64,000 bases of DNA, from assembly GCA_026983835.1 (NCBI GenBank), contig JALSTH010000104.1:3862-67861 (forward strand), in the 5' to 3' direction. Positions within the stretch are counted from its first letter, which is position 1; the number at the start of each line of letters is the position of its first letter. The translations under genes and the position numbers were made by a program. Below are positions 1,961 to 46,842 of this stretch, piece by piece. The notes under the pieces were generated by a model. The model had not been told where the DNA came from and did no database searches. It was given only the letters and a program-made list of their open reading frames with translations. This DNA comes from Candidatus Zixiibacteriota bacterium (GTDB lineage: Bacteria > Zixibacteria > MSB-5A5 > UM-FILTER-46-8).

Positions 1961-3271
1961 ATGTTTAAGACCACATATAGACAAGATGGCGAGATCAAAG
2001 AGGTTCGCTCCCTGATAGATGAAATTGACAGCCTAAAAATCCAATTGGATAATATAAAGCATTTGGGGGCGATGATAACCTCCATATTGGATTTCGATAC
2101 AATTCTATCGGTTTTAATGGAAGCTTCCTTGGAGATGGTTAATGGGGAAGTGGGAGGGATATTGATAAACGAGGAGGGGAATTGGGTTCCAAAAATTGCG
2201 ATGGGCTTACAACCCGAATATATAAAATCATGGGAGATTAAAGGGAAAGGTAACATCTTAGATGTTCTTTTATCCACAAAACAGGTTATGCGGATGGATA
2301 ACCCTCGTGAGGCGTTGCTAATACATAGTAAAAAGATGAATGTTGAGTCTCTAATGATTGCACCGGTCCATTCTAAAGGAGAAATTATTGGAGCTGTTAT
2401 AATAGCTAATCGTACCGATGGACTTAACTTCGACGATAAGGATGTATCCAATCTTAAGATGTTGGTGCATTTTACAGCGGTAGCTATTAACAACGCAAAA
2501 CTGCTTCAGCTGACATTGGAAAAACAGCAACTTGACCATGAGCTTTCCGTTGCGAAACTTGTGCAAAGCGCATTATTACCCAGCAGAAAATTAACGATCC
2601 CGGGTGTTATCATTGATGCTTCATATATCCCCGCCAAAGAAGTTGGAGGGGATTATTATGATGTAATAATCAGGGACGATAAGCATTTCGCTGTTGTCGT
2701 CGGTGATGTAACCAACAAGGGTGTTCCCGCGGCTTTGATGATGAGTGCGGCAAGGAGTTTAATAAGGGCGGAATATCGCAATGGGAAAGATGCCGCCTCT
2801 GTTATAAATTCAATCAATCAGCTTCTCTGCGAGGATACCGAGAGGAATTCCGATATGTTTATTACGCTTTTTTATGCGCATATCGATTTAGAGACTAAAA
2901 CGATGGAATATATCAATGGCGGACATCCACCCGGTTTCCTTATACGAAAGGGAGAGGATAATATGGAGATGCTCGGTACTTCGGGGACGATTGTGGGACA
3001 ATTTCCCGAATTTCAATACAGCAGCAAGATGATTAAAATCGAAGAGGAAGATAGAATTGTATTATACACCGATGGCGCTTTTGAATGTTTCGATTCCGAA
3101 GGTCAAATGCTTGGCCTTAACGGGCTTAAAAAAATCGTCAATGAAATCAAAGATTATAAATCTCCGATGTTTTTGGAAGAGATCAATGAGCTTCTGAAAG
3201 ATTATATGGTGGACAAAAGCAAGATAGATGATTTCACAATGCTGGTTTTGGACTTTAAACAAATTCAATAA
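1961..3271 (+). CDS. GAF-domain PP2C-family serine phosphatase (RsbU/SpoIIE-like), input phosphatase of a partner-switching module
   Basis: N-terminal GAF-like region followed by a PP2C/SpoIIE core (GGDYYDV, FAVVVGDVTNKGVPAALMMS, FITLFYAHID, YINGGHPP, VLYTDG). Confidence 0.85.
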   Translation: MFKTTYRQDGEIKEVRSLIDEIDSLKIQLDNIKHLGAMITSILDFDTILSVLMEASLEMVNGEVGGILINEEGNWVPKIAMGLQPEYIKSWEIKGKGNILDVLLSTKQVMRMDNPREALLIHSKKMNVESLMIAPVHSKGEIIGAVIIANRTDGLNFDDKDVSNLKMLVHFTAVAINNAKLLQLTLEKQQLDHELSVAKLVQSALLPSRKLTIPGVIIDASYIPAKEVGGDYYDVIIRDDKHFAVVVGDVTNKGVPAALMMSAARSLIRAEYRNGKDAASVINSINQLLCEDTERNSDMFITLFYAHIDLETKTMEYINGGHPPGFLIRKGEDNMEMLGTSGTIVGQFPEFQYSSKMIKIEEEDRIVLYTDGAFECFDSEGQMLGLNGLKKIVNEIKDYKSPMFLEEINELLKDYMVDKSKIDDFTMLVLDFKQIQ

Positions 3272-3282
3272 GTGGGAAAACT

Positions 3283-3750
3283 ATGGAAAAACATCCTTTA
3301 CATTATGCCTCCCTTGAGTTGAATAACTCGGGACTTTGTATCAAAATTACCGATGATATATTAAAAGCCTTTTTGGAGTTGACATCTTTGGATGATAGAG
3401 AGAAGTATCGGCTGAGGGTGGCTGTTTCCGAAATAGTTACCAACGGTTATTTTCATGGAAATAAACAAAACGCTCAAAAACGGATGTTTTTCAGCTGCAA
3501 TGTATTTAATAACCGTATAGAGATATCGGTTGAAGACGAAGGGGATGGATTTAATGATGATGAGGTAGAAGAAAAATACGGAGCTGCCGGAGAGTATGCA
3601 ACTGGGGGAAGAGGATTAAAAATTGTCGAGAAGGTAGCCGATAGGGTAAAATGTGGAAAGACGGACAACGGGCGCTTTAGGGTATCGCTCTTAAAGTATG
3701 TGAATGCGGAGCCGGTGGAGGCAATAGGCCAAAGTATTGAAAGCTATTAA
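3283..3750 (+). CDS. RsbW/SpoIIAB-like anti-sigma-factor-type serine kinase (GHKL ATPase, HATPase_c_2)
   Basis: N-box-like VAVSEIVTNGYFHG and G-boxes EDEGDGF, GGRGLKIV. It is 155 aa and immediately follows the PP2C gene (11-nt gap). Confidence 0.75.
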   Translation: MEKHPLHYASLELNNSGLCIKITDDILKAFLELTSLDDREKYRLRVAVSEIVTNGYFHGNKQNAQKRMFFSCNVFNNRIEISVEDEGDGFNDDEVEEKYGAAGEYATGGRGLKIVEKVADRVKCGKTDNGRFRVSLLKYVNAEPVEAIGQSIESY

Positions 3751-3788
3751 TCCGAACTATTTGAGCACAAAATACAAGGAGAGCACAG

Positions 3789-4145
3789 ATGAACATTAGC
3801 AAATCAATGGTTGGAGACATTGCCGTAATTAAACTTAATGGGAGACTGGATCTTGAAACCTCAAAGACACTAAAAGGGTTGACCAAAGAGCTTATGGCTG
3901 ACAATCATAATAAAATGATTTTCGATTTAACCGATGTAGATTTTATTAATAGTTCCGGTTTGGGGACACTCGTTTCCATTCTTCGCGATGTGAATTCAAA
4001 AAAAGGGAATTTGGAGCTTTGCTCTCTTGCCCCCTACATCCAAGAGATTTTTGAAATTACACACCTTTCGTCGATATTTCGCATTTATGAGAATGAGGAG
4101 GAAGCTTTATCGAGTTTCGCGGTAACGGAAAATAAAACGGAATAA
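3789..4145 (+). CDS. STAS-domain anti-sigma-factor antagonist (RsbV/SpoIIAA-like)
   Basis: 118 aa. Contains DLTDVDFINSSGLGTLVSI, with the conserved phosphorylatable Ser in a DFINSSG context. Confidence 0.8.
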   Translation: MNISKSMVGDIAVIKLNGRLDLETSKTLKGLTKELMADNHNKMIFDLTDVDFINSSGLGTLVSILRDVNSKKGNLELCSLAPYIQEIFEITHLSSIFRIYENEEEALSSFAVTENKTE

Positions 4146-4244
4146 AAAATAAGTTAAGACGAGGTAAATCGGATGTTTCGGCTATGTTTACGCTTTCGAA
4201 TATTACAAAATTGTTAACGGCTAATCTTATTAGGGGCTAATATA

Positions 4245-4646
4245 ATGAGATATGGAATCCTGGTAATTGATGCGGATATTTTATTGAGAGATATGCTTTA
4301 CGACTTCCTTTACGATAAAGGGTATAATGTGTTCACGGCGGAAGATACGGATTCAGGTAGAGAGGCTGTGCATAAACACAAATTTGATGCCTTAATTATA
4401 AATTTGGATCTCCCCGATGGAGGAGGAATAGAACTTTTATCCGAAATAAAAAAGTCGCATCCGAAAATACCAATTATAGTTATTGCTTCGAAATTAGATG
4501 ACAATGAAAGAAAAATAGTTTATGAATTGGGCATTATCTCCTATATGGAAAAACCCTTGAAAATTTCCAAAATTGCGGCAATCCTCAAAAACTCGCTAAT
4601 GCAAAAAGACGAAACTAACCCCGTTAATTACGGTAATGATAAATGA
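4245..4646 (+). CDS. Single-domain response regulator receiver (CheY-like)
   Basis: Has VIDAD, INLDLPDGGG, VIAS and EKP motifs, which are the canonical receiver Asp/Asp/Thr/Lys positions. Confidence 0.8.
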   Translation: MRYGILVIDADILLRDMLYDFLYDKGYNVFTAEDTDSGREAVHKHKFDALIINLDLPDGGGIELLSEIKKSHPKIPIIVIASKLDDNERKIVYELGIISYMEKPLKISKIAAILKNSLMQKDETNPVNYGNDK

Positions 4647-8683: not shown

Positions 8684-9441
8684 ATGGATATTACTACCAT
8701 AGGGGGGTTGATTTTAGGTATCGGCGCCGTATTGTTTTCCTTTTTTATGGAGGGTGGGCATATTTCCGCAATTATCAGAATTCCCGCAATGATAATTGTT
8801 ATATTCGGAGCCATAGGCGCTACTATAATTACTACTTCCTTCGATAGCATAAAAAGTTTTCCGAAGCTAATCAAAATAGCCTTTTTCCCGGAAAAGCAAA
8901 ACGCTCCCGAGATAATTAAACAAATCGTAAATATGGCACGAAGTGCAAGGCGCGACGGTATTCTTGGGCTTGAACCATATTTAAATGAAATAAAAAATCC
9001 CTTTTATAATAGGGCCGTCCAGCTACTAATAGACGGGACGGAAATGACTGAGCTCAGGGATTTGCTTGAGATGGAGTTGGATAATATTACCAAACGGCAT
9101 AAAGCCGGGATATCGTTGTTTCAAAAATTGGGGGGGTTTTCCCCGACAATGGGAATAATCGGAACTGTCTTGGGATTCATTCCCTAGCTAACACCGATGA
9201 TGCCGGCAAAATGGCTTCCTCTATCGCCTCAGCCTTTATCGCCACTTTATGGGGCGTTGCTTTGGCAAATTTGGTTTACCTTCCCATCGGAGATAAACTC
9301 AGGCGCAGACATGAGGAAGAGATAAGGCTTTTGAATATAATATTAGAGGGAGTAGTCTCCATACAATCGGGAGAAAATCCCCGCATTATCAAAACCAAGC
9401 TATTATCCTTTATCGAACCAGAAAACCGTAAGGTCCGTTGA
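8684..9441 (+). pseudogene. motA: motA flagellar stator protein MotA/PomA family, split into two ORFs (8684..9187 and 9211..9441) by an apparent frameshift near 9180
   Basis: ORF1 ends ...GGFSPTMGIIGTVLGFIP*. An overlapping frame then continues (H)SLANTDDAGKMASSIASAFIATLWGVALANLVYLPIGDKL..., matching the MotA TM3-TM4 region. Both halves are MotA-like, and a -1 slip at ATT_CCC restores one protein. Confidence 0.7.
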
Positions 9442-10136
9442 TTATGCGAAAAACGGATAGAGATGATGACAACGAAAACCTTGATCGTTGGCTATTGACC
9501 TATGCGGATTTAATTACGCTGTTATTGGCACTGTTTATCGTAATGTATTCGATATCGCGCATAGATACAAAGAAATTCGGGAAAGTTTCTGAGGCTTTTA
9601 ATACGGCTTTGAGTGGTACCAACGGGACATTGAAAAACGCTGAAGCCATTCTTCAGAAAGACAATTTAGATAAACTGGTAAAAATAGATAAGCTCCTTAA
9701 TATACAAACTCAAATTAGAGGATTTGTGGCTTCACAGGGTATGGAAAAGGATATCGATGTTATTTTAGAAAAAAATGATTTAACGGTTCATGTAACGGAA
9801 TCGGCATTTTTCGAATCCGGGAAAGCGGACATAAAACCAAAGGCTAAGAAATTCCTAAGATCCCTATCCTCGGTTCTCAAACAAATTCCCAACGAGATAA
9901 GAGTAGAAGGGCATACTGATAACATCCCGATAAGCACTCCTCAGTTTCCATCTAACTGGGAGCTATCGGTTATGAGGGCAACGAAGGTCGTTCGATTTCT
10001 GACAGAGCGGTGTGGAATAAAACCAAAAAGGATCTCAGCCCTCGGTTTCGGCGAATATAAACCGAGATTCCCCAATGATACCCCGGATAACCGTCGACGA
10101 AATAGACGAGTGGATATTGTGATACTTCGGGAATAA
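9438..10136 (+). CDS. motB: Flagellar motor protein MotB (single TM + OmpA-like peptidoglycan-binding C-terminus)
   Basis: N-terminal LTYADLITLLLALFIVMY plug/TM region and OmpA-like FESGKADIKPKAKKFL...GHTDNIPI...LSVMRATKV. It overlaps the motA end by 4 nt (ATGA). Confidence 0.85.
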   Translation: MIMRKTDRDDDNENLDRWLLTYADLITLLLALFIVMYSISRIDTKKFGKVSEAFNTALSGTNGTLKNAEAILQKDNLDKLVKIDKLLNIQTQIRGFVASQGMEKDIDVILEKNDLTVHVTESAFFESGKADIKPKAKKFLRSLSSVLKQIPNEIRVEGHTDNIPISTPQFPSNWELSVMRATKVVRFLTERCGIKPKRISALGFGEYKPRFPNDTPDNRRRNRRVDIVILRE

Positions 10137-10189: not shown

Positions 10190-10783
10190 TTATAAGGGTT
10201 TTCTGTCTTTAAGAGCCTTTGATAAGGTTACGATATCTGCGAATTCCAAATCGCCCCCTATTGGTAAACCTCTTGATATACGGGTTACTTTCACCTTAAA
10301 TGGTTTTAACAATTCCATTATATATTCCGCTGTTGCCTCGCCCTCAGTATTCGGATTGGTCGCCAATATTATCTCGGCCGCACCCTCGGAAACTCTATTT
10401 AACAGTGACCTTATCCTCAAATCGTCAGGTCCTATTCCATCAAGAGGGGAAAGCGCCCCCCCTAAAATATGGAATACTCCTTTATACTCATTGGTTTTCT
10501 CAAGAGCAAAAACATCCGAGGGCTTTTCAACTACACATATTATATTTTTGTCCCTGTCGGGATTACTGCATATAGCGCAGGGGTCTGTCTCGGTGATGTT
10601 TCCGCAGATGGAGCATTCGATAACTTTACTTTTTACTTCGATAATCGTTTCCGCTAATTCTTTTGCTTTATCATCGGGAAGTTTAAGAATATAGAAAGCC
10701 AACCTTCGGGCGGTTTTATAGCCGATGCCGGGCATTCCGGCGAATTGCCTTATAAGTTTTTCAAGCAGGGGAGAGGTAAACAT
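10190..10783 (-). CDS. recR: Recombination protein RecR
   Basis: LIRQFAGMPGIGYKTARRLAFYIL HhH motif, Cys4 zinc finger (CSICGNITETDPCAIC) and Toprim region. Length 197 aa. Confidence 0.95.
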   Translation of the reverse strand: MFTSPLLEKLIRQFAGMPGIGYKTARRLAFYILKLPDDKAKELAETIIEVKSKVIECSICGNITETDPCAICSNPDRDKNIICVVEKPSDVFALEKTNEYKGVFHILGGALSPLDGIGPDDLRIRSLLNRVSEGAAEIILATNPNTEGEATAEYIMELLKPFKVKVTRISRGLPIGGDLEFADIVTLSKALKDRKPL

Positions 10784-10784
10784 C

Positions 10785-11102
10785 TTAAAACGGCATACCC
10801 GGGATATTCAATCCTCCGGTTAATTTAGACATTTCTTCCTGCTGCAACTTCGCGGATTCCTCTTTAGCTTGATTAACGGCGGCTAAAACTAAATCCTCCA
10901 ACATTTCGATATCATCGGGATCAACAGCTTGAGGATCTATTTTGATCTCCATCAAATCGCCCTTCCCGTTCATCACAACCTTTACCATGCCGCCTCCGGA
11001 ACTTCCCTCAACGGTTAAATTTTCAAGCTCCTCCTGAAGTTCCGCTAATTTACGCTGCATTTTTTGAACCTGCTTCATCATATCGCCCATACCTTTTGCC
11101 AT
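10785..11102 (-). CDS. ybaB: Nucleoid-associated protein YbaB/EbfC
   Basis: 105 aa. MAKGMGDMMKQVQKMQRKLAELQEELENL... is typical YbaB. It ends 2 nt from recR. Confidence 0.9.
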   Translation of the reverse strand: MAKGMGDMMKQVQKMQRKLAELQEELENLTVEGSSGGGMVKVVMNGKGDLMEIKIDPQAVDPDDIEMLEDLVLAAVNQAKEESAKLQQEEMSKLTGGLNIPGMPF

Positions 11103-11141: not shown

Positions 11142-12830
11142 TCAATTGCCCTCTTTATCTTTGGGTTTCCAGTCCACTAAATGCCCCCCGAATTTCTTTA
11201 GCGCCGAATCTATTATCTTATCGCCGGTAGGACCGGCAAACATAGGTTTATTTTGTTTTTCAGGATTACTCTTCTCAGTTAAAGCATCGGATTTACTATC
11301 GAAATTAAACTCCAAACGGATCGGGGTACCGAAAATTTTCTCGGTTAATAAATTTAGGGCTTTGATATTGTTCGGGGTATTTATTAAATTCGGAATTCCG
11401 GAATTGGTAACCTTTAATGTTAAGGTATTATTATCGAGGGCTTTTGGGATAGCTCCATTTAACAAAGCCCATAAGGTTTTCCTTTTCTTGCTCATTTCCT
11501 CAACAACAAGCTTCCAACCGCTTAAAACGGATCCCCAATCATTTCTATCGATTTTAATCGGGATTTTTCCTTTTATGCTTTCTTCTTTTGGTATTATTTT
11601 CAGTTCGGGGTGGTTATTAGGTATGGATGTTGGCTGTTGCGCTTTTTGGGGAAAATCAAAAATATCAGGTTCCTTAAAATCGGCGGCTATATTGGCATTG
11701 GAATATTCCATTTTTAACAGTTTCTCCAAATCGATGGTTTTTTCGAGGTTTGCCATCTTAATAAGGGCTAATTCGATGGAGATTATCGGTTCTATCGTCT
11801 TACGCCTGAAACCCGCAAAAAGCTCAGCGGATATATTCAACATCCTTAAAAGTTTACCCTCATCGAGATTTTTAAGGGCTTCTCGATATCCCTCTAAATA
11901 GTCCCCTGCAATTTCACCCAAATATTGTCCATCATTATCTAATTTTATAACCAAAAGGTCTCTAAAATGCTTGTTTAAGCTTTCGAGGAAGTATTCGATA
12001 TTGCCTCCCGAATTGATAAAAGTACGAAATAATTTAATAACTTCTAAAGGTTTTGAACGGCTAATGGATATGGATATTTCCAATAATACTTTTTTATCAA
12101 CCAATCCCAATATTTCGGAGACTTTCTCCGAATTGATTTTTTCATCACTCGAAGCAATAACCTGATCCAGTAACGATAATGCATCCCTTAAACTGCCGGA
12201 AGCCTTTGTGCAAATCAGTTCCATTCCCTCCTCATCAAGGACAACCCCTTCTTTATCACATATTGATTTGACCGCATTAATCAATTTTGGAAGGGGTATA
12301 AGTCTAAAATCGAACTTAAGACAGCGGGACATAATTGTGGCCGGAACCTTCTGGGGTTCGGTAGTCGCCATAATAAATATGCCATGTTTGGGTGGTTCTT
12401 CGAGAGTTTTCAGCAAAGCGTTGAAAGCCTCCGAGGTGAGCTGGTGGACCTCATCAATGATGTAAATTTTATACTTGGATCTGATGGGAGTATATCTTAT
12501 CGCCTCGCGCAGGTCGCGTATATCATCGATACCACGATTGGAAGCCGCGTCGATTTCAATTACATCGGGACTGTTCCCGGAGGCGATTTCCAAACAGGAA
12601 TTACAGATGGAGCAAGGTTCACCATCTGTAGGATTTTCACAATTAAGCGCTTTGGATAAAACGCGGGCGGTTGTTGTTTTTCCGGTTCCGCGGGGTCCCG
12701 AAAAAAGATAACCGTGGTGTATTTTACCAAAGGCGACCGCATTTTTTAGCGTCAGGGTAATATGTTCCTGCGCTATTATTTCGGAAAAGTTCTGCGGCCT
12801 ATGTTTGAGGGCGATTACTTTATAGGTCAT
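11142..12830 (-). CDS. dnaX: DNA polymerase III subunit gamma/tau
   Basis: Walker A GPRGTGKTT, zinc module (CENPTDGEPCSICNSC) and the SRC motif. The start was trimmed to MTYKVIALKHRPQNF at ~12830, because the track ORF extension (to 12917) would overlap the SRP RNA gene. Confidence 0.9.
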   Translation of the reverse strand: MTYKVIALKHRPQNFSEIIAQEHITLTLKNAVAFGKIHHGYLFSGPRGTGKTTTARVLSKALNCENPTDGEPCSICNSCLEIASGNSPDVIEIDAASNRGIDDIRDLREAIRYTPIRSKYKIYIIDEVHQLTSEAFNALLKTLEEPPKHGIFIMATTEPQKVPATIMSRCLKFDFRLIPLPKLINAVKSICDKEGVVLDEEGMELICTKASGSLRDALSLLDQVIASSDEKINSEKVSEILGLVDKKVLLEISISISRSKPLEVIKLFRTFINSGGNIEYFLESLNKHFRDLLVIKLDNDGQYLGEIAGDYLEGYREALKNLDEGKLLRMLNISAELFAGFRRKTIEPIISIELALIKMANLEKTIDLEKLLKMEYSNANIAADFKEPDIFDFPQKAQQPTSIPNNHPELKIIPKEESIKGKIPIKIDRNDWGSVLSGWKLVVEEMSKKRKTLWALLNGAIPKALDNNTLTLKVTNSGIPNLINTPNNIKALNLLTEKIFGTPIRLEFNFDSKSDALTEKSNPEKQNKPMFAGPTGDKIIDSALKKFGGHLVDWKPKDKEGN

Positions 12831-12840
12831 AATAATTTTT

Positions 12841-13104
12841 GTGTGCACCCACCTCCGACCCTCTGCACAAATGCGCATCGGGGTAGTTAACTCAGACCGA
12901 GCCACCCCGCAACACACCGAGTGTTCGCTTACCGCTGCTACCTTCCGGTCCTGACGGGGTTCGGCGATCTTCAGTTGTGCGGGACCCGATCCTCAACGCC
13001 ACTTGCACCGATAACGCAAATGGCTTTAGGCCTCGGGTGGGAATTCGACCCCGGTATAGCGGATTCCGGGTTACAGGGCACCGCTAGCTCCCCGTCTAGC
13101 ACAT
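12841..13104 (-). ncRNA. ffs: Signal recognition particle RNA, long (Bacillus-type, Alu-domain-containing) form, about 264 nt
   Basis: Minus-strand sequence contains the domain IV core GUCAGGACCGGAAGGUAGCAGC. The 5' part (GUGCUAGACGGGGAGCUAGCGGUGCCCUGUAACCCGGAAUCCGCU...) closely parallels the Alu domain of B. subtilis scRNA, and the 3' end (...GGUGGGUGCACAC) pairs back with the 5' end. It lies between tRNA-Ala and dnaX, as in the scr-dnaX-yaaK-recR arrangement. Confidence 0.85.
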
Positions 13105-13113
13105 AAATTCTAA

Positions 13114-13186
13114 TGGAGTTGAGGAGATTCGAACTCCCGGCCTCCTGAGTGCGATTCAGGCGCTCTCCCAGCTGAGCTACAACCCC
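13114..13186 (-). tRNA. tRNA-Ala (anticodon CGC); CCA not encoded
   Basis: Minus strand reads GGGGTTGTAGCTCAGCTGGGAGAGCGCCTGAATCGCACTCAGGAGGCCGGGAGTTCGAATCTCCTCAACTCCA. It folds as a cloverleaf and carries the G3:U70 Ala identity pair. The anticodon loop is AUCGCAC. Confidence 0.85.
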
Positions 13187-13399
13187 ATTCCTTTCACTAA
13201 AAATCAAACAATAATATAAAAAATCAATAATTATTGCAAATGAAAATTTGTAAAGGTTAATTTCAAGCGGAATATTCAATATTGGAACTCATCGGATATT
13301 TTTGTAAATAAAAACCGCAAGTGTTCCGATAACATATATAACCACAAATAGTTGTGGAAAGCGGTCTAATCTTACATTTAAGCATCCGGAGATTATTTA

Positions 13400-15226
13400 A
13401 TGAATCTGGGTTCAACCCGTAAAATCCTAAAATGGATATCAGGAATAATCCTTATCGTTGCTGTTATACTTATAATCCAATCCGAATCATCAATTAAGAC
13501 AAAATTGGATGATTTAAATCGGAAGGATCTACTAACACAAAACCAATATTCGGGGATGGAGCAACAGCTTTTTCAAATATCCTCTTTGTTGGAAAGGATA
13601 TCGGGGTTATTAAATAAGCACATTCTCGCACTATCCGCCAATGATAAAAGTAATTTTTCAAACCGCATTAATTCCTATCAAAATAAACTCCTAAATACAA
13701 TTTACGATCTTGAGGGAAAATTGGATGAGGATCAAATTCAAATAATGGATGAAATCAAAAATGATGTGGCGTTATATATAACTAACGATATGATAGTGCA
13801 GGATTATAGCAATAGGGGATTAAAAAAGAAGGCTTGGGGATTTATACAGGATAGTTTGGAACAAAATTTCAATAGCGCTTTAACAAATATCGACAAATTG
13901 AACCAACAGCTTTCGGATAGCAAAGATAGAGAATTAGCGAAATTGAAGGGTGATATAGCAGGAGTGGAAGCTAAAGCCGACTTTACACTTAAAGTGGCTT
14001 ATATGCTAATACTATTTTCTATTGCGGGGTTTCTTTTTTCCTTCTTTATGCCGTCAAGGGGTAAGGCAAACCAAAGACAACGGGATAATAAAAGAATTAA
14101 AACTAAAAACAGGGTAGATAGTACGGAAAGGAATTCGCAAACTATTGAGGGGTCCGCAACCGTCGAAACAAATTATTCCAAAAGTAATAAGATTGCCGCA
14201 AATGTAATCAACAAACCCTCCCAAGATTCAATACAGGAAGAGCTCAGACAACAAAATGAAATTGCGAAACAAAGGAAAAAAATGCTGAATGAGGTCGATA
14301 AATTGACTTCTTATGATACGAAACGAGATAAACCATCATTGGATTTCGGAACCTATTTCAAGAATTCCAATAAAGTATCGGAATTGCTTAAATCGGCGGG
14401 AGAACTGTCATCCTCATCAATTGTCGAAGCTCAAGATATAGCCCTAAAAATTGCGAAAATGGGGGAGTACGAAATAAGGAAATTAGCTTCATATACAATT
14501 AAGATGTCAAGGGATGTGCAGAAGATTATTGATAAAAACAACAGCGCACTGCTTAACAACCTTAAAAACGCCGAAAACACAAGCGCAGAACTCCAAAACA
14601 TTGTCAAGAATATCGGTCGAATTGAAAATCTGCTTACAGGAATCGAGGGTACTGAAGATATTATAAATTCATTGGATAATATGACGGTGAAAATAGGGGG
14701 CTTAAACCAAATAAAGAAAAAGCATTCTTTTGAAGGATTAACAAATGAACTTAAAGCCACCTTCCAAGATATTGAAAATGGAGAATTGGAAGGCGAAGAA
14801 ACATCGTTAAATAATTATGAAGAGGAATCGATACAGCCAAGCATACCCGATGATATCGATATAGTTACGGCGAATACTTCATTGGAATCTTTAAGTGAAG
14901 AAGATGTTTCCGAGAATAGTACGGGCGAAGAAGAAACCATAGAGAATACTAAGTCCGATAATGCATCCGATGATTTAGAGCAGGACAAAGCATCTTCAAA
15001 TGATGGAAATATCGGGGACACTCCAAAGAATGCCGAGCCGCAAAAAGATCAGGAAAATGATGTGCAAATCCTTTCTGACAAAGAACTTGAGGAAGCACTG
15101 AATGGAATCGAACCTCCGAATGGTATTACCGACAAAGTTCCCGATAACGAGGGAAATAATATAAAGGATATAACAGATAATATCGATAAACAAGCCGATG
15201 AAGAATTGATGGCCGATAAAGATTAA
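13400..15226 (+). CDS. Hypothetical membrane-anchored coiled-coil protein with a strongly acidic low-complexity C-terminal tail
   Basis: 608 aa. N-terminal TM (ILKWISGIILIVAVILII), second hydrophobic segment (VAYMLILFSIAGFLFSFFMP), long heptad-like helical regions, and a D/E-rich last ~150 aa. No recognisable catalytic motif. Confidence 0.5.
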   Translation: MNLGSTRKILKWISGIILIVAVILIIQSESSIKTKLDDLNRKDLLTQNQYSGMEQQLFQISSLLERISGLLNKHILALSANDKSNFSNRINSYQNKLLNTIYDLEGKLDEDQIQIMDEIKNDVALYITNDMIVQDYSNRGLKKKAWGFIQDSLEQNFNSALTNIDKLNQQLSDSKDRELAKLKGDIAGVEAKADFTLKVAYMLILFSIAGFLFSFFMPSRGKANQRQRDNKRIKTKNRVDSTERNSQTIEGSATVETNYSKSNKIAANVINKPSQDSIQEELRQQNEIAKQRKKMLNEVDKLTSYDTKRDKPSLDFGTYFKNSNKVSELLKSAGELSSSSIVEAQDIALKIAKMGEYEIRKLASYTIKMSRDVQKIIDKNNSALLNNLKNAENTSAELQNIVKNIGRIENLLTGIEGTEDIINSLDNMTVKIGGLNQIKKKHSFEGLTNELKATFQDIENGELEGEETSLNNYEEESIQPSIPDDIDIVTANTSLESLSEEDVSENSTGEEETIENTKSDNASDDLEQDKASSNDGNIGDTPKNAEPQKDQENDVQILSDKELEEALNGIEPPNGITDKVPDNEGNNIKDITDNIDKQADEELMADKD

Positions 15227-15513: not shown

Positions 15514-16338
15514 ATGAAGAAATATTTGATAGTATTGTTATTTATTTTCGCAATTGTGTGGGCACCACAGATTTATTCGCAGGAACGGCCTGCTGTTCAT
15601 ACTACATATCCTGAAAATGGTTTGTCGGGATCGATTATAATTACTCCCAATGATTCAACCTGTGAGATAGGAACTGATGGAGGATATTTCCGCTATGATG
15701 TTTTGATTAGTAATAATTATAGCCATTTGGCAAACGGTTATATATGGGGGAAGGTGCATAGTGTCGAAACTGGTCAGGAATGGGGTCCCCTGCTTTTGAC
15801 ATCGCTAACCTTAGGCCCTTATGAAACTCTATTGATAGAGGATGCGGATTTATATGTTCCTTATTGTATAAGTGAGGGGTCCTATTTATTTGTCGTCAGT
15901 ATTGGATGCTATCCGATTATAGTCGATAGTGATACAGCCGAGTTCTTTAAGGATGGTGAATCTGAAATAGATTGTCCTCCCAACCTTCTTGTTGATGAAA
16001 ATACTAACATTCCGCCGGGATCGGTTGAGTCTTCGTGTAATGGTGGTAGTATCGATGATAGCGGAATTATCCCTATGGCATTCAACATAAATAAAATTTA
16101 TCCTAATCCTTTTAATGCGTCGGTTAAAATAGATTTCAGCTTGTTCCAACCCAATGAAGTAAGAGTTAAAATTATAAATCTTGCGGGGGAGGTAATCGAA
16201 ACTCTTGAAAACAATTATATGGATGCCGGTGAACACGAGCTGATTTGGAAGGCATCTTCGAAGTCGTCAGGAATATATTTTATAGAATTAGAAGTTTCCG
16301 GGAAAAAGGAAATACGGAAGATATCTTTAATAAAATAA
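15514..16338 (+). CDS. Secreted protein with a type IX secretion system C-terminal sorting domain (Por_Secre_tail / type A CTD); the passenger domain has no known function
   Basis: N-terminal signal peptide MKKYLIVLLFIFAIVWAPQIYSQ. The C-terminal ~80 aa carry the canonical CTD motifs KIYPNPFNASVKIDF, SGIYFIELEV and a terminal KEIRKISLIK. Confidence 0.85.
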   Translation: MKKYLIVLLFIFAIVWAPQIYSQERPAVHTTYPENGLSGSIIITPNDSTCEIGTDGGYFRYDVLISNNYSHLANGYIWGKVHSVETGQEWGPLLLTSLTLGPYETLLIEDADLYVPYCISEGSYLFVVSIGCYPIIVDSDTAEFFKDGESEIDCPPNLLVDENTNIPPGSVESSCNGGSIDDSGIIPMAFNINKIYPNPFNASVKIDFSLFQPNEVRVKIINLAGEVIETLENNYMDAGEHELIWKASSKSSGIYFIELEVSGKKEIRKISLIK

Positions 16339-20228: not shown

Positions 20229-21152
20229 TCAAAAAGACTTTATGGGATTGTAAATCAGCGATACCAAAAGTTCACCAATTTGCTTAAGACTTTTTGGCGA
20301 ACATTTATCCGGCGTGTCAGATAGAGTGTGCCAATATGGATAATCAAAATCAATTATATCCACCATCGGGATACCTGCTTTTATCAGGGGTATATGGTCA
20401 TCGTAAACTTGATATTTAAGACGAGGGACAAAGCTTACTAACCCCAGCTCAGCAATAGCCCTACTGATCCATATCGATTCAACCAACGCTGGATTTGTGT
20501 AATAGGAATACTCCTCCATATATATTTGTAAATCCTTATCTCCGATCATATCCAAAAGTATCCCGTAGTCGGGGTAAGGGTAGGACTTTTGCGAAGCATA
20601 GTATTTGGAACCGAGGGAGAAATGCTCCAAGTCTCCCGCTTTTCCCCAATCCTCCCCGTCAAACAAAACAATTGTAATGCCAATCGGCGGCGGATATGTC
20701 GAAACCAAGCGAGCTATCTCCAAGAGAACTGCCACCCCAGAGGCACCATCGTTTGCTCCCAAAATAGGTTTTAACGCCTTTGTGGAATCACTTTCCTTGT
20801 CGGCACGAGGCCTAGTATCCCAGTGGGCACACAGAAGGATTCTATTTTGTTTCAACAAATCGAAAGAGGTAATTATGTTATACATTGGGATTGTGTTGTT
20901 CGGCAATTCGGGAGTGAAGTTTTGTTTTTCAACCGAATTGGAGTATTTTTTCAGATATGATACCAAAAATTCCCCGCATAGTCGATGTCCTTCTCCGCCG
21001 GGATTTCGGGTGCCAAAAGAGCATTGTTTCTCCAAAAGTCTAAAAGCATTCTTCTCATCGAAAAAGGGATATCCTTCGGGTTGGTTTTGAGCGAATCCAT
21101 CAATGCCGCAAAAGAGAACAGCAATTATAATTACCGAAAGTATTTTATTCAT
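20229..21152 (-). CDS. M28-family zinc peptidase-fold protein, glutaminyl-peptide cyclotransferase-like (secreted/lipoprotein)
   Basis: Signal peptide MNKILSVIIIAVLFCGIDGFAQ. Metal-site motifs CAHWDTRP, GANDGASGVAVLLEIA and VLFDGEDWG. Its start codon overlaps the sprA-like stop by 1 nt (translational coupling). Confidence 0.6.
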   Translation of the reverse strand: MNKILSVIIIAVLFCGIDGFAQNQPEGYPFFDEKNAFRLLEKQCSFGTRNPGGEGHRLCGEFLVSYLKKYSNSVEKQNFTPELPNNTIPMYNIITSFDLLKQNRILLCAHWDTRPRADKESDSTKALKPILGANDGASGVAVLLEIARLVSTYPPPIGITIVLFDGEDWGKAGDLEHFSLGSKYYASQKSYPYPDYGILLDMIGDKDLQIYMEEYSYYTNPALVESIWISRAIAELGLVSFVPRLKYQVYDDHIPLIKAGIPMVDIIDFDYPYWHTLSDTPDKCSPKSLKQIGELLVSLIYNPIKSF

Positions 21153-24100
21153 TAGAATCTTATCTCAGTCCATAATCCGATTTCGCGGGAATGTTGTTTC
21201 CTCCCCAATTTTTTATCATTGGTGTCCGACCAGCCTAACTTAAACCCACCGCTTATCTGACTGGAGAACGAATAGCTGGCATTGAAATCGAAGCTAAAGC
21301 TTTTTCTATCGGTCTCGGTTGTGTACGGATATCCGGGTTTGGCGTTCTCAGATTTATCATACTGTTGATTCGCCGTAATTCCAAGCGTTAAATTTGAATC
21401 GAATTTAATCCTTTTTAAGAAAGGCAGGTTTATTCCCTGAGGTGCCTTAAAGGAATAATTCAACGAAAGGGATATCGATGAACTCTTCGATCGAGTTGTG
21501 CTCTCACTTCCGCTTCTCAAATTTTCTTTCTTTGATTTGGAGGTCTCCATCTTCAAACTGGTCCTAATTCCATTTTTCCAATTAAGAGACCAAGAGAATA
21601 GAGGAGAGAACGATTTGGTAATATCTTTATTGGTTAATTCACCCGTGTTTGGATTTTCCTTTGTATCGGTTTTTACAGAATAGCCGGATTGCAATGAGGA
21701 AGATGAAGCAATTTTTTTCAGTAGCTTAATTTTTTCCAGGCCAGTTAAGTTTGCGGATATATCGGGAAATGTAGTCGAGACGGATTTAGTCGGTTCGGAT
21801 GTAGATCGGGTTATGGAGATACGCTGGGTATATGACCCATCCAATTTAAGAGAACTGAACGGCGCTATCCCCGATTTAAGGCTATAACTGTCGGTAAGCG
21901 ACTTGCTGTCGCCGGTTTGGATACGGATAGTGTCTGCTTTTGTTGAAACCCCCGGATCCTCGGTAAAGCCAAACCTGTAAAGGAAAGACGGCTGACCTAC
22001 TAACCCCGTTCTGCCGAAATTCTTAGAGCGTGTAAGAGAGCCGCGGATCGGGTCGAGAGAGGTAAAAATATCTTTAAACCTCTGCCATAACCATACTGGG
22101 CTTCCGGGCATAGGGGATTTTTTTATCTCTTCCTCAATTTGCTTTCCCTTTTCCCCCTCCGATTGATTGCTATTCTTTGGTGGCGCACCGATTCTTGGGA
22201 GTTTACTGCCCCTGGATTTTTTATAACCAAATAGCTTCTGTAGATTAAGCGATGTATCAAAAGAAATACTGTTGCTGCTACTCAATGATAATGTCGAATC
22301 GGGATGCTGTTTCGGATCTGAATTCTGATGGTAATTAGACGAGAAATTCATCCTCGTATCTAAAAAACTCAATATCTGAGGCCTCCAACCGGAACCGAAC
22401 CTTTGAGTGTAATCTATTTCCTCTCCCAATTTCAATTTCTCCGGCTTGAATGATATATTTAATTGGTCACTCCTGCGGATATCTCGTATAGATGTAAAAT
22501 TGAAAGAGTAATCCATCGCATTAAAGGGGGAGTATTGTGTATTACCGCTTAATGTCAAATCACGGGTGAATGTGTCCGGAAGCCAACCGGTGCTTGAAAG
22601 CTTCTTACTTTTTAGCGAGCTCATATCTCCTTGAAAATATGTGGAAGCAGGGAAGAGGTAAAAGTCGGATTTGGAGAGTTTATTCAAAAGAAATATGTTT
22701 TTTGTCCAACCGAAAATGGAAAGCTTTGGTTTGGATTTTATCGACATATCATATTTACCGGAAAAGTTCCATCTATCGGTAGATGAAAAAGGAATAGTCG
22801 AGGTTTTAGATTCGGTGTATGAAGACGAAAAAGAACCCGAAAGACGGTTTAGTGTGGCATTGATAAACCAATTCCCCGTCTTCATATTCATCCGTTCGGA
22901 AACATTAAATTGAGTCGAAGTGTTCTTCGATGCTTCTTCGCTCCTCAACTCATCAGGTAAGACAACATCCGACCCCGGTTTTAATCGAGGTAAACTCAGC
23001 GTGCTTTGCCAAGACGCGGTAACAGGGATATTCAACCCTAATTCCGGAGGGAACAGTTTGTGCAATGATACACCCCCGCTTACACTGTTTGTTGTTTGAA
23101 TTGAACCCGGACCTTTTTTCTCCAATAGGGTAACAAAGTCTGCTCCTTTTCGCTGATACGATGCCGAGAAATTAACGAAATCCGCGAAATGCGCATCAAC
23201 ACTCATCCTTCCCGCCCAATCGGATTTATTGCGAGGGTTGGTTAAACGAAGTTCATCCACCCAGATCTCACCGCTGACAGGACCATCGGCCGAATTATCT
23301 ACCTCCAATCCTAAATCAAACCATCGGATTGTCGTCAAGGTTGGACGCCCTTTAACCGAATAATTGCCGTCAGTCGTGTCGGGAGTACCGCCGGTACTAT
23401 CGTTCCAATTCATAAGCATATAATTTTTCAGCGCTGTAATGTTTGCAAAATCAACAATCATATCATTGGAGGTTGCCCAACCGGGCGAAATATGATTATG
23501 ATATTCATAATAGTTTAACGAATCACTTCCGAACCTGAAAAAGAATTTTATTTCCCCCGAAGGGACGCCCGAAGCTATGTCCGGATCCCCATAGACAAAC
23601 ATCTGCATATTCTCGTAGTTGGAATAATCTTCCGCCGAATACGGTATCATAAAAGCATCAGCCCCACGACCCGGCCATAAATTATCATATTGGAGAACAA
23701 GCGATTGCTCTTTTTTGCGTAAACCGGTACTTCTGTCCCGTTCGCCGGATACTCCCGGAGGCGAAAAGTAATCGGTATTCTCCTGAGTATTTTTAACCGT
23801 CACTTCAAATTTCTCACCGGGATACTGCGGTATTGGATGAAATTGCGGAATAGCATCCGAAGAATCGGAAACGGAAAATATCTTCCCAACTTCCCATTTA
23901 TTACCTACCAGTTGGAATTGAGCTATTTGCAGAGTTATTGTGTCTTCCCCGGTAAACCAAAAACGTGCAAATTCTATTTGATTCCAATCGGGGAATCCCG
24001 TCTTGGAGAACATTGTAGAATCCTTAATCGGAATCCGATATAATTTCCAACCGGTCGGGGTACCATCTTTTAGAGTTGAATCGGCAATAAAACTGGTACT

Positions 24101-46500: not shown

Positions 46501-46842
46501 TTAATTGGAAAAAGTGTTATGTTCTTCGATGGAATTCTCCTCGGCCGTTTTCTTTTCCACAGGATTGGCGTTCATTACCGAATTCTTAAAATCGTTTGAT
46601 GGTTTAAAAACGGGTACATTTCTATCCGGCACCGGTACTACCTCGCCCGTTCTCGGATTACGGGCTTTCCGTGCTTTTCGAGCCTTTACCTTGAAGGTTC
46701 CAAACCCCCGAATCTCGATATTTTTACCTTCCTCCAAAGCCTTCCTTATTGCCGTGAGCATTGAGTCAATAGTTACCGCAACATCCGTTCTTGTTAACCC
46801 CGTTTTATCAGCTACAATTTCAACCAAATCAGCCTTGGTCAT
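46501..46842 (-). CDS. HU/IHF-family nucleoid-associated DNA-binding protein
   Basis: MTKADLVEIVADKTGLTRTDVAVTIDSMLTAIRKALEEGKNIEIRGFGTFKVKARKARKARNPRTGE. Canonical beta-arm motif. Confidence 0.85.
   Translation of the reverse strand: MTKADLVEIVADKTGLTRTDVAVTIDSMLTAIRKALEEGKNIEIRGFGTFKVKARKARKARNPRTGEVVPVPDRNVPVFKPSNDFKNSVMNANPVEKKTAEENSIEEHNTFSN

What the first reader, a model, noticed from the sequence alone, without database searches (positions are those of the whole stretch)
12841..13186. Long Alu-domain (Bacillus-type) SRP RNA in a T9SS-encoding genome, in scr-dnaX-ybaB-recR synteny preceded by tRNA-Ala
The ~264-nt minus-strand RNA aligns along its length with B. subtilis scRNA, with a helix 8 core GUCAGGaCCGGAAGGuAGCAGC, 5' GUGCUAGACGGGGAGCUAGCGGUGCCCUGUA and 3' GGUGCACAC. 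Large SRP RNAs are best known from Firmicutes and Thermotogae. Here one sits next to FCB-type secretion genes and L/P-ring flagella, which is a useful taxonomic marker for the lineage. The track ORF 12971..13279 and the dnaX N-terminal extension are artefacts of this RNA locus.
Basis: seen in the sequence. Interest (0 to 1): 0.5.

Follow-up and report, generated by a model that had tools for sequence, protein, structure and literature searches.

The report
Bacillus-type long SRP RNA in Zixibacteria
This is a genuine gene for the long, Alu-domain form of the signal recognition particle RNA, sitting between a tRNA-Ala gene and dnaX in a Gram-negative-type Zixibacteria genome; it is an ordinary housekeeping RNA of a known family, and its only mild interest is that the long form is usually described as a Firmicutes and Thermotogae trait.

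Summary
Confirmed. Rfam's Bacteria_large_SRP model (RF01854) matches window 13104..12841 (minus strand, 264 nt) end to end at 177.7 bits, against a gathering score of 60 (E = 2e-29). tRNA-Ala(CGC) lies 8 nt upstream, and dnaX-ybaB-recR starts 10 nt downstream.

The 5' and 3' extensions are real structure, not leader sequence. In 27 homologous RNAs, 81% of Alu-domain cells pair, against 36-45% when the partners are slid. 48 of 62 pairs show compensatory changes. The five-base-pair loop-loop pseudoknot known from the B. subtilis crystal structure is complementary in all 26 sequences that have the loop.

The genome is Zixibacteria. Its ProRS is 74-76% identical to named Zixibacteria, and it is a diderm (FlgH/FlgI, SurA, SprA). 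All nine other Zixibacteria dnaX loci fetched carry the same tRNA-Ala, large SRP RNA, dnaX arrangement.

The trait is not lineage-specific. Loci labelled KSB1, Cloacimonadota, Poribacteria and Scalinduaceae have it too.

The called 102-aa ORF and the 16-aa DnaX N-terminal extension are annotation artefacts. The HU/IHF-like gene gives no evidence of an SRP role.

Verdict: a correct annotation and a new member of a known kind, of low to moderate interest.

The parts
12841..13104 (-). SRP RNA gene (ffs/scr), large Bacillus type, 264 nt
   Evidence: RF01854 at 177.7 bits, model positions 1-256 of 256, E = 2.4e-29. My own model R1 gives 249 bits. Covariation in 27 homologues.
12993..13104 (-). 5' part of the Alu domain (about nt 1-112): 5' strand of helix 1, helices 2, 3 and 4, the UGU linker, and the proximal 5' strand of helix 5
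   Evidence: Rfam alignment. Pairs with compensatory changes: helix 1, 6 of 7; helix 2, 3 of 4; helix 4, 5 of 6. The loop-loop pairs AGCGG/CCGCU are 100% complementary. U30-G31-U32 is near-invariant. The boundary with the S domain is approximate (within about 2 nt). It is taken from where small-SRP loci start matching model R1, at positions 115-213.
12894..12992 (-). S domain, the equivalent of 4.5S RNA (about nt 113-211): distal helix 5 and helix 8, with the GGAA tetraloop and the Ffh-binding loops
   Evidence: GUCAGGACCGGAAGGUAGCAGC is at nt 150-171. The S-domain helices are 74-100% paired, with 30 of 36 pairs showing compensatory change. Small SRP RNAs of other loci align only to this part of model R1.
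12841..12893 (-). 3' part of the Alu domain (about nt 212-264): 3' strand of proximal helix 5 and of helix 1
   Evidence: Alignment columns 99-115 pair with columns 336-351 in 83.7% of cells, with 11 of 13 pairs compensatory. Helix 1 columns 1-7 pair with columns 353-359.
13113..13187 (-). tRNA-Ala(CGC), 8 nt upstream of the SRP RNA, with no encoded CCA
   Evidence: ARAGORN. Rfam tRNA model 64.5 bits. The same tRNA sits 5' of the SRP RNA in all 9 other Zixibacteria loci and in L001, L002 and L005.
13211..13254 (-). AT-rich region with sigma-70-like promoter matches; candidate promoter of the tRNA-Ala / SRP RNA / dnaX unit
   Evidence: Four overlapping matches of 9 out of 12 positions. This is consensus-level evidence only. 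No terminator-like site lies between here and dnaX.
11142..12830 (-). dnaX (DNA polymerase III gamma/tau), 562 aa from the ATG at 12830, which is 10 nt after the SRP RNA 3' end
   Evidence: PRK05563 at 478 bits (cut-off 400). PRK14965 aligns residue 1 to model position 1. TIGR02397 aligns residues 3-359 to model positions 1-354. Pfam domains.
12831..12917 (-). Spurious N-terminal extension of the dnaX ORF, overlapping the 3' end of the SRP RNA. The ORF can be opened at GTG 12917. The public gene call of 578 aa starts at 12878.
   Evidence: ORF list. P0121 is 578 aa at 100% identity. Gene call in the source record. The family models start at the ATG at 12830.
12971..13279 (-). Spurious 102-aa ORF lying over tRNA-Ala and the 5' half of the SRP RNA
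   Evidence: It is called as a gene in the source record (L170 600..908). It has no Pfam match. No gene call spans the tRNA-Ala and SRP RNA in any relative; the only call in that gap is a 34-aa ORF in L165 (2179..2283), which overlaps only the first 11 nt of the tRNA (2273..2347).
10785..11102 (-). ybaB/ebfC
   Evidence: PF02575 at 129 bits. TIGR00103 at 97.8 bits.
10190..10783 (-). recR
   Evidence: TIGR00615 at 251.5 bits. Pfam RecR domains.

Best explanation
Window 13104..12841 (minus strand) is the single-copy gene for the RNA subunit of the bacterial signal recognition particle, in its long 'Bacillus-type' (6S/scRNA) form.

The middle third (about nt 113-211) is the S domain. Its helix 8, with a GGAA tetraloop and the conserved internal loops, binds the Ffh M domain and scaffolds the Ffh-FtsY GTPase cycle, as in 4.5S RNA.

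The 5' 112 nt and the 3' 53 nt fold together into a protein-free Alu domain. It consists of:
- helix 1, which clamps the two ends;
- helices 2, 3 and 4, joined by the UGU linker;
- a five-base-pair loop-loop pseudoknot between the helix 3 and helix 4 loops (AGCGG with CCGCU);
- purine-purine pairs in proximal helix 5, onto which helix 3 packs.

By analogy with B. subtilis and eukaryotes, this tRNA-like module reaches the elongation-factor site of the ribosome. It slows elongation while the nascent chain is delivered to the membrane.

The gene is most likely transcribed from an AT-rich promoter region upstream of tRNA-Ala(CGC), as one precursor with the tRNA and probably with dnaX-ybaB-recR. 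The RNA would then be released by tRNA-processing nucleases.

Shown here: family membership, full-length structure, covariation, synteny and its conservation in the phylum. Inferred: expression, processing, Ffh binding and elongation arrest.
For: Family membership and structure:
- RF01854 matches full length at 177.7 bits against a gathering score of 60, E = 2.4e-29.
- In 27 homologues aligned to a structure model, the whole structure is 82.5% paired, against 38-42% when partners are slid. 77 of 95 pairs have double-sided changes, and 0 of 500 shuffles reach the observed values.
- For the Alu domain alone, 81.1% of cells pair against 36-45% slid, and 48 of 62 pairs are compensatory.
- The loop-loop pairs are complementary in 26 of 26 sequences, with one A-U to G-C double change, in L022. 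This matches the five-base-pair pseudoknot t1 of the B. subtilis crystal structure (PMC4231752).
- The UGU linker, the equivalents of the A8/G59 and A61/U258 platform, and the G.A/G.G, A.G/A.A and G.U pairs at the minor-saddle positions are conserved (motifs from PMC4231752).

Conservation in the lineage:
- Within 10 Zixibacteria, 5 of 11 helix 1-2 pairs and 19 of 34 proximal helix 5 pairs show compensatory change.
- All 9 other Zixibacteria dnaX loci have a full-length RF01854 hit at 116-193 bits. Each is preceded by tRNA-Ala(CGC) and followed by dnaX-ybaB-recR.

Transcription unit:
- The spacers are short: 8 nt from the tRNA to the SRP RNA and 10 nt from the SRP RNA to the dnaX ATG.
- No terminator-like site lies between them.
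Against: - There are no expression, end-mapping or binding data.
- Neither ffh nor ftsY appeared among the window ORFs scanned against Pfam: 47 of the 52 ORFs of at least 150 aa, plus the HU/IHF-like gene and the 102-aa ORF.
- The single-sequence minimum-free-energy fold does not reproduce the rod and is not significantly more stable than shuffles (z = -1.72).
- 16 of the 95 Rfam pairs are non-canonical in the window sequence.
- The middle of helix 5 (alignment columns 121-135) is only 57-61% paired across homologues. This may reflect internal loops or misalignment.
- The alignment was fitted to the model structure, which biases pair counts upwards. The slid controls argue that this is not the main effect.
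- The pseudoknot is almost invariant, so apart from one sequence it is supported by conservation rather than by covariation.
Confidence: 0.95

Rival explanations
1. Only the 4.5S-like core is the functional SRP RNA. The 5' and 3' flanks are precursor leader and trailer sequence, or the dnaX 5' UTR, that happens to resemble an Alu domain.
For: The RNA is embedded between a tRNA and dnaX with spacers of 8 and 10 nt, so it must be cut from a longer transcript. The single-sequence fold is not significant.
Against: The covariance model matches end to end with high posterior probability in the 5' domain. Helices 1, 2, 4 and proximal helix 5 show compensatory changes in 25 of 30 pairs. The five loop-loop pairs and the UGU linker are conserved across phyla. 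Leader sequence would not keep base pairs through double substitutions.
Confidence: 0.02
2. The long form is a recent horizontal acquisition from Firmicutes or Thermotogae in this one genome, not a trait of the lineage.
For: Textbook distribution: Kempf et al. [quoted passage not shown] The 5' domain is very similar to that of the Firmicute locus L045.
Against: The same gene sits in the same tRNA-Ala / SRP RNA / dnaX / ybaB / recR context in 10 Zixibacteria loci whose DnaX proteins are only 40-59% identical to the window's. The SRP RNAs themselves are 65-86% identical. Identity to the Firmicute RNA (68%) is no higher than to the KSB1 RNA (69%). An ancient transfer at the base of the phylum cannot be excluded.
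Confidence: 0.04
3. The 102-aa ORF 12971..13279 and the longer DnaX (578 or 591 aa) are real coding features, and the RNA match is incidental.
For: Both are called as genes in the public source record.
Against: The ORF lies on top of a 64.5-bit tRNA and a 177.7-bit SRP RNA. It has no family match. No gene call spans the tRNA-Ala and SRP RNA in any relative; only L165 has a 34-aa call in that gap. The DnaX family models begin at the ATG at 12830. DnaX extensions in relatives vary in length and likewise run into the RNA, for example P0126 at 615 aa.
Confidence: 0.01

Closest known systems
Bacillus subtilis scRNA (6S/long SRP RNA; Rfam RF01854; Alu-domain crystal structure of Kempf, Wild and Sinning 2014, PMC4231752)
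   Same: Similar length (264 nt here; 271 nt in B. subtilis is from my own knowledge). Helices 1-5 and 8, with no helix 6. The UGU linker. The five-base-pair loop-loop pseudoknot (AGCGG/CCGCU). The A/G and A/U platform positions. Purine-purine pairs at the minor-saddle positions. A GGAA tetraloop in helix 8. A position directly upstream of dnaX-ybaB(yaaK)-recR; the B. subtilis gene order is from my own knowledge.
   Different: The host is a diderm, T9SS- and L/P-ring-bearing Zixibacteria rather than a monoderm Firmicute. The RNA is fused behind tRNA-Ala(CGC) with an 8-nt spacer. Two of the four minor-saddle pairs differ in the 3' partner: C/A and G/G here, against C/C and G/A in B. subtilis (compared with the text).
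Escherichia coli-type 4.5S RNA (Rfam RF00169 Bacteria_small_SRP) and Bacteroidales small SRP (RF04183)
   Same: The S domain (about nt 113-211) is homologous. Small SRP RNAs from other dnaX loci align to exactly this part of the model. Many of them also lie upstream of dnaX.
   Different: The small forms lack helices 1-4 and proximal helix 5 altogether. The window RNA has them, and the large model outscores the small one, so the small-model overlap is suppressed within the clan.
Large SRP RNAs found here in other diderm candidate phyla: loci labelled KSB1 (L002), Cloacimonadota (L034, L041), Poribacteria (L050, L078) and Scalinduaceae (L036)
   Same: Full-length RF01854 hits of 129-194 bits upstream of dnaX, with the same 5' domain sequence motifs.
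   Different: 56-69% identity to the window RNA. The flanking tRNAs differ. The taxon labels are those of the submitters.
Archaeal 7S SRP RNA (Rfam RF01857)
   Same: Helix 1 and an extended loop-loop pseudoknot are shared prokaryotic Alu features (PMC4231752).
   Different: The archaeal RNA has helix 6 and an SRP19 site. The window RNA does not, and it matches the bacterial model.

Membership tests
Bacteria_large_SRP (Rfam RF01854; Bacillus-type SRP RNA) | Covariance-model score above the curated gathering score, over the full model length | tested here: met
   177.7 bits against a gathering score of 60, model positions 1-256 of 256, not truncated.
Bacteria_large_SRP (Rfam RF01854; Bacillus-type SRP RNA) | S domain with helix 8, a GNRA (GGAA) tetraloop and the conserved Ffh-binding loop sequences | tested here: met
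   GUCAGGACCGGAAGGUAGCAGC at nt 150-171. The apical helices are 78-100% paired across 27 sequences.
Bacteria_large_SRP (Rfam RF01854; Bacillus-type SRP RNA) | Alu 5' domain: helices 2, 3 and 4 joined by a UGU-containing linker | tested here: met
   Helices 2, 3 and 4 are 77%, 86% and 84% paired. Helix 2 has 3 of 4 and helix 4 has 5 of 6 pairs with compensatory changes. UGU is conserved in at least 25 of 27 sequences.
Bacteria_large_SRP (Rfam RF01854; Bacillus-type SRP RNA) | Prokaryote-specific helix 1 pairing the 5' and 3' termini | tested here: met
   Seven pairs, 82% paired, 6 with double-sided changes. In the window the pairing is UGUGC with GCACA.
Bacteria_large_SRP (Rfam RF01854; Bacillus-type SRP RNA) | Extended loop-loop pseudoknot of five Watson-Crick pairs between the loops of helices 3 and 4 (t1 in PMC4231752) | tested here: met
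   AGCGG (nt 20-24) is complementary to CCGCU (nt 43-47). The pairs are complementary in 26 of 26 sequences, with one A-U to G-C double change. Support comes mostly from conservation, not covariation.
Bacteria_large_SRP (Rfam RF01854; Bacillus-type SRP RNA) | Non-Watson-Crick pairs in proximal helix 5 (minor-saddle motif) and the four-base platform at junction IIIA | tested here: inconclusive
   Positions were mapped by offset from the residue names in PMC4231752. A8/G59 and A61/U258 are conserved. G74/U247 and A72/G249 are as in B. subtilis. C70/A251 and G71/G250 differ in the 3' base. The three-dimensional contacts cannot be tested from sequence.
Bacteria_large_SRP (Rfam RF01854; Bacillus-type SRP RNA) | Absence of helix 6 and the SRP19 site (which distinguishes it from archaeal 7S RNA) | tested here: met
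   The best clan member is the bacterial large model. At 264 nt, the sequence is fully accounted for by helices 1-5 and 8.
Bacteria_large_SRP (Rfam RF01854; Bacillus-type SRP RNA) | Expressed as a stable ~260-270-nt RNA that binds Ffh and slows elongation | not testable with these tools
   No transcriptome or biochemical data are available. ffh was not found among the window ORFs scanned.
HBsu-containing SRP (the B. subtilis model of Nakamura et al. 1999, cited in PMC4231752) | An HU-type protein that specifically binds the Alu domain | not testable with these tools
   Gene 46842..46501 matches PF00216 at 110 bits. It scores 93 bits on IHF-alpha and 70 bits on HU-alpha NCBIfam models, all below their cut-offs. 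It is about equally similar to the solved HU and IHF-alpha single chains; two 204-residue integration host factor chains (2iif, 2iie) score highest. It lies 33 kb away with no linkage. PMC4231752 calls the bacterial Alu domain protein-free.
Bacteria_small_SRP (RF00169, 4.5S type) | A single hairpin of about 100-115 nt with no Alu domain | tested here: not met
   The RNA has 112 nt (5') and 53 nt (3') of conserved, covarying structure outside the 4.5S-equivalent core.

The most novel reading that the evidence does not exclude
Alu-domain (long) SRP RNAs are the rule, not the exception, in several diderm candidate phyla. These include Zixibacteria (10 of 10 loci here) and loci labelled KSB1, Cloacimonadota, Poribacteria and anammox Planctomycetota. 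If so, RNA-only elongation arrest is not a monoderm or Thermotogae peculiarity. The 4.5S form of Proteobacteria and Bacteroidales would then reflect repeated loss from a long ancestral bacterial SRP RNA that was linked to dnaX. The distribution itself is well supported by my data. What is uncertain is whether it is undescribed, and whether 'ancestral with repeated loss' is the right history.
Probability: 0.5. Interest if true: 0.4.

Novelty: new member of a known kind. Interest (0 to 1): 0.22.

Why it matters
Practical value: it corrects three gene calls in the public record. One spurious 102-aa ORF should be removed, DnaX should be shortened by 16 aa, and an unannotated SRP RNA should be added. 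The same DnaX over-extension recurs in related Zixibacteria assemblies.

Biological value: it adds Zixibacteria, and in passing KSB1, Cloacimonadota, Poribacteria and Scalinduaceae loci, to the bacteria that keep the Alu domain. The structural paper on the bacterial Alu domain states that Gram-negative SRP RNA lacks it except in Thermotogae. These lineages have outer membranes, T9SS and flagellar L/P rings, so the presence of the Alu domain does not track cell-envelope type.

It does not reveal a new mechanism or a new RNA class.

Tried and rejected
1. An exact-sequence look-up of RecR found nothing. The source record calls a shorter RecR of 181 aa.

They returned only relatives at 33-51% identity and no Zixibacteria. 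Zixibacteria loci had to be reached through the search for homologous proteins followed by the look-up of encoding contigs.

3. My regular expression for the 5' Alu motif was wrong and matched nothing. I replaced it with covariance-model searches.

4. Model R1 reported 'full-length' hits in the Bdellovibrio-labelled loci L056 and L039. Rfam classifies these as small SRP RNAs, so the hits were artefacts of my model and I dropped them.

5. Single-sequence thermodynamic folding gave a partly different structure with z = -1.72. It is uninformative for a long rod with many internal loops.

6. Literature searches found no paper describing long SRP RNAs in FCB-group or candidate phyla. Cavalier-Smith and Chao 2020 is held only in part and yielded nothing relevant. 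Absence from this library does not prove the distribution is undescribed. Rosenblad et al. 2009 and SRPDB were not readable here.

7. I considered the HU/IHF-like gene as an Alu partner and rejected it as unsupported.

8. I looked for a Bacteroidetes-type promoter (TTTG ... TAnnTTTG) upstream of the tRNA and found no exact match by eye.

Full report
**Observation.** A gathering-threshold scan of the whole window against Rfam 15 gives three hits: two tRNAs and one SRP RNA. The SRP RNA hit is RF01854 Bacteria_large_SRP at 13104..12841 on the minus strand. It scores 177.7 bits against a gathering score of 60, with E = 2.4e-29. It spans model positions 1-256 of 256 and is not truncated. Posterior probabilities are near maximal through the 5' domain and the helix 8 region. 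ARAGORN and Rfam agree on tRNA-Ala(CGC) at 13187..13113 on the same strand. The finding's coordinates therefore cover two adjacent RNA genes.

**Surroundings.** The SRP RNA ends at 12841. Ten nucleotides later, an ATG at 12830 opens a 562-aa DnaX. The NCBIfam model PRK05563 scores 478 bits, above its cut-off of 400. PRK14965 aligns residue 1 of this protein to model position 1, and TIGR02397 aligns from residue 3. ybaB (11102..10785) and recR (10783..10190) follow.

The mechanical ORF can be extended to a GTG at 12917. The public source contig is ENA ERZ27262647 k141_524001, 179 kb long. It carries a 578-aa DnaX call and a 102-aa gene call that corresponds to window 12971..13279. Both overlap the RNA genes. 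The 102-aa ORF has no family match. No gene call spans the tRNA and SRP RNA in any relative; only L165 has a 34-aa call in that gap, overlapping just the start of the tRNA. The same DnaX over-extension recurs in relatives: P0126 is called at 615 aa and overlaps the SRP RNA of L165 by 149 nt.

Upstream of the tRNA lies an AT-rich stretch with several sigma-70-like matches of 9 out of 12 positions (13254..13211). No terminator-like site lies between it and dnaX. The spacers are 8 nt (tRNA to SRP RNA) and 10 nt (SRP RNA to dnaX). A single transcription unit of tRNA-Ala, SRP RNA, dnaX, ybaB and recR is the natural inference. The tRNA-processing nucleases would then define or approach the SRP RNA 5' end. 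This is inference only, with no expression data behind it.

**Organism.** The window's ProRS (36333..38054) is 100% identical to a protein on the 179-kb contig. It is 74-76% identical to proteins named 'candidate division Zixibacteria', and many further hits carry that name. The closest DnaX relatives, at 54-59% identity, are also named Zixibacteria.

The window encodes the following features:
- the flagellar L-ring and P-ring proteins and their chaperone (FlgH, FlgI, FlgA);
- SurA-like chaperones;
- a heptosyltransferase;
- an outer-membrane beta-barrel protein (a weak Pfam match, below the gathering score);
- the T9SS translocon SprA (27082..21152);
- a Por_Secre_tail cargo protein.

I collected homologues in three steps:
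- DnaX-anchored loci from GTDB representative genomes and from metagenomes.
- Nine Zixibacteria dnaX loci reached through protein search and exact look-ups.
- A covariance model (R1) built from nine sequences with the Rfam structure projected on them, used to search all loci.

Twenty-seven full-length RNAs were aligned (A2). The results on A2 are:

| Measure | Whole structure | Alu domain alone, with pseudoknot added |
|---|---|---|
| Cells forming standard pairs | 82.5% | 81.1% |
| Same, with 3' partners slid by 1-3 columns | 38-42% | 36-45% |
| Pairs with changes on both sides | 77 of 95 | 48 of 62 |
| Shuffles reaching the observed values | 0 of 500 | 0 of 500 |

By helix, the pairs with compensatory changes are helix 1, 6 of 7; helix 2, 3 of 4; helix 4, 5 of 6; and proximal helix 5, 11 of 13. 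Helix 3 is nearly invariant.

Within the 10 Zixibacteria alone, 5 of 11 helix 1-2 pairs and 19 of 34 proximal helix 5 pairs show compensatory change.

Three caveats apply. The alignment was fitted to the model. The middle of helix 5 (columns 121-135) is only 57-61% paired. A single-sequence minimum-free-energy fold is uninformative (z = -1.72).

**Tertiary features.** Kempf, Wild and Sinning (2014, PMC4231752) describe several features of the B. subtilis Alu RNA:
- a five-base-pair Watson-Crick loop-loop pseudoknot;
- a conserved UGU linker;
- a four-base platform, A12/G62 with A64/U263;
- four non-Watson-Crick pairs in helix 5 that form a 'minor-saddle motif'.

In the window, the helix 3 loop AGCGG (nt 20-24) is complementary to CCGCU (nt 43-47) in the helix 4 loop. 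The five pairs are complementary in all 26 sequences that have the loop. One sequence, L022, carries an A-U to G-C double change. U30-G31-U32 is near-invariant. The platform equivalents A8/G59 and A61/U258 are conserved. The minor-saddle positions hold C/A, G/G, A/G and G/U in the window, and predominantly G.A or G.G, A.G or A.A, and G.U across the set. I mapped these positions by offset from the residue names in the paper, so this part is inference.

**Distribution.** All nine other Zixibacteria loci give full-length RF01854 hits of 116-193 bits. Each is preceded by tRNA-Ala(CGC) and followed by dnaX-ybaB-recR.

Full-length large SRP RNAs upstream of dnaX also occur in these loci, named by their submitters' labels:
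- KSB1 (L002);
- Cloacimonadota (L034, L041);
- Poribacteria (L050, L078);
- Scalinduaceae (L036);
- an 'Ignavibacteria' MAG (L001);
- two unnamed MAGs (L005, L022);
- the Firmicute Anaerosolibacter (L045);
- several metagenome contigs.

Small SRP RNAs occupy the same position in Edwardsbacteria (L003), in many deltaproteobacterial loci and in Bdellovibrio-labelled loci.

The ffs-dnaX linkage is therefore old and independent of SRP RNA type. The long form is universal in the Zixibacteria sampled but is not diagnostic of them. The window RNA is 65-86% identical to other Zixibacteria RNAs, 69% to the KSB1 RNA and 68% to the Firmicute RNA. That gives no sign of a recent Firmicute origin.

**HBsu partner.** The gene at 46842..46501 is a PF00216 HU/IHF-family protein (110 bits). 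It scores higher on IHF models (93 and 92 bits) than on HU models (70 and 58 bits), and all are below their cut-offs. It is about equally similar to solved HU and IHF-alpha single chains. It lies 33 kb from the RNA. [quoted passage not shown] There is no evidence for the proposed partnership, and it cannot be tested here.

**Comparison with what is known.** The RNA meets every sequence-testable defining feature of the Bacillus-type SRP RNA family and fails the definition of the 4.5S type. [quoted passage not shown] My literature searches found nothing on long SRP RNAs in FCB or candidate phyla. The library is incomplete, however, and Rfam-based pipelines would label this gene automatically.

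I therefore file it as a new member of a known kind. It is a correct and useful annotation, with a modest point about distribution, and not a new mechanism.

**Scores.**
- Confidence that this is a functional large SRP RNA gene: 0.95.
- Interest: 0.22.
- Most novel reading not excluded: the long form is ancestral and widespread among diderm candidate phyla, with repeated reduction to 4.5S. Probability about 0.5; interest if true about 0.4.

Noticed in passing
window 8684..9441 (+): motA appears split by a frameshift. ORF 8684..9187 carries MotA_N and the first half of MotA_ExbB. A 76-aa ORF at 9211..9441, in another frame, reads like the MotA C-terminus. motB follows at 9438..10136. This could be a sequencing or assembly error, or a pseudogene.
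   Followed up: no
L161, L163-L169, L171, L001, L002, L005 (upstream of dnaX): tRNA-Ala(CGC) lies directly 5' of the large SRP RNA in every Zixibacteria locus and in L001, L002 (KSB1) and L005. The spacers are 7-49 nt, except about 460 nt in L171 and L001. In L171 a PF05635 (23S rRNA intervening-sequence protein) gene sits in the spacer.
   Followed up: partly
L165:2386-2649 with the gene call at 2501..4348; L163 and L164: Public DnaX gene calls in related Zixibacteria assemblies also run into the SRP RNA. P0126 is 615 aa and overlaps it by 149 nt. L163 and L164 overlap by 8 nt. This is a recurrent annotation artefact where the SRP RNA is not annotated first.
   Followed up: partly
L138:1180-1461: A metagenomic large SRP RNA of 67% GC lacks the helix 4 loop through a 13-nt deletion, so it cannot form the loop-loop pseudoknot. 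It keeps the helix 3 loop AGCGG.
   Followed up: no
L161:5301-5666: In one Zixibacteria genome, RNase P RNA (RF00010, 252.8 bits) lies immediately downstream of recR. No RNase P RNA was found in the window.
   Followed up: no
L034:2191-2265 and L041:5223-5297: In the two Cloacimonadota loci a tRNA follows the SRP RNA after about 6 nt, instead of preceding it.
   Followed up: no
window 13400..15226 (+): A 608-aa protein is transcribed divergently from the tRNA / SRP RNA promoter region and has no Pfam match. The gene at the corresponding position in L169 has a weak 4HB_MCP_1 hit. It has an acidic, low-complexity C-terminus.
   Followed up: no
window 21152..27082 (-) and 15514..16338 (+): A 1976-aa SprA-family protein (T9SS translocon; SprA_N at 98 bits) and a 274-aa Por_Secre_tail cargo protein. 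Por_Secre_tail proteins also flank the SRP-dnaX locus in L163, L166 and L168.
   Followed up: partly
L056:5808-6007 and L039:1-163: My model R1 reported 'full-length' matches of 200 nt and 163 nt in Bdellovibrio-labelled loci. Rfam classifies them as small SRP RNAs: RF00169 for L056, and RF04183 exactly at its gathering score for L039. I treat the R1 hits as model artefacts. A Bacteroidales-type small SRP hit in a Bdellovibrio-labelled MAG is odd.
   Followed up: partly
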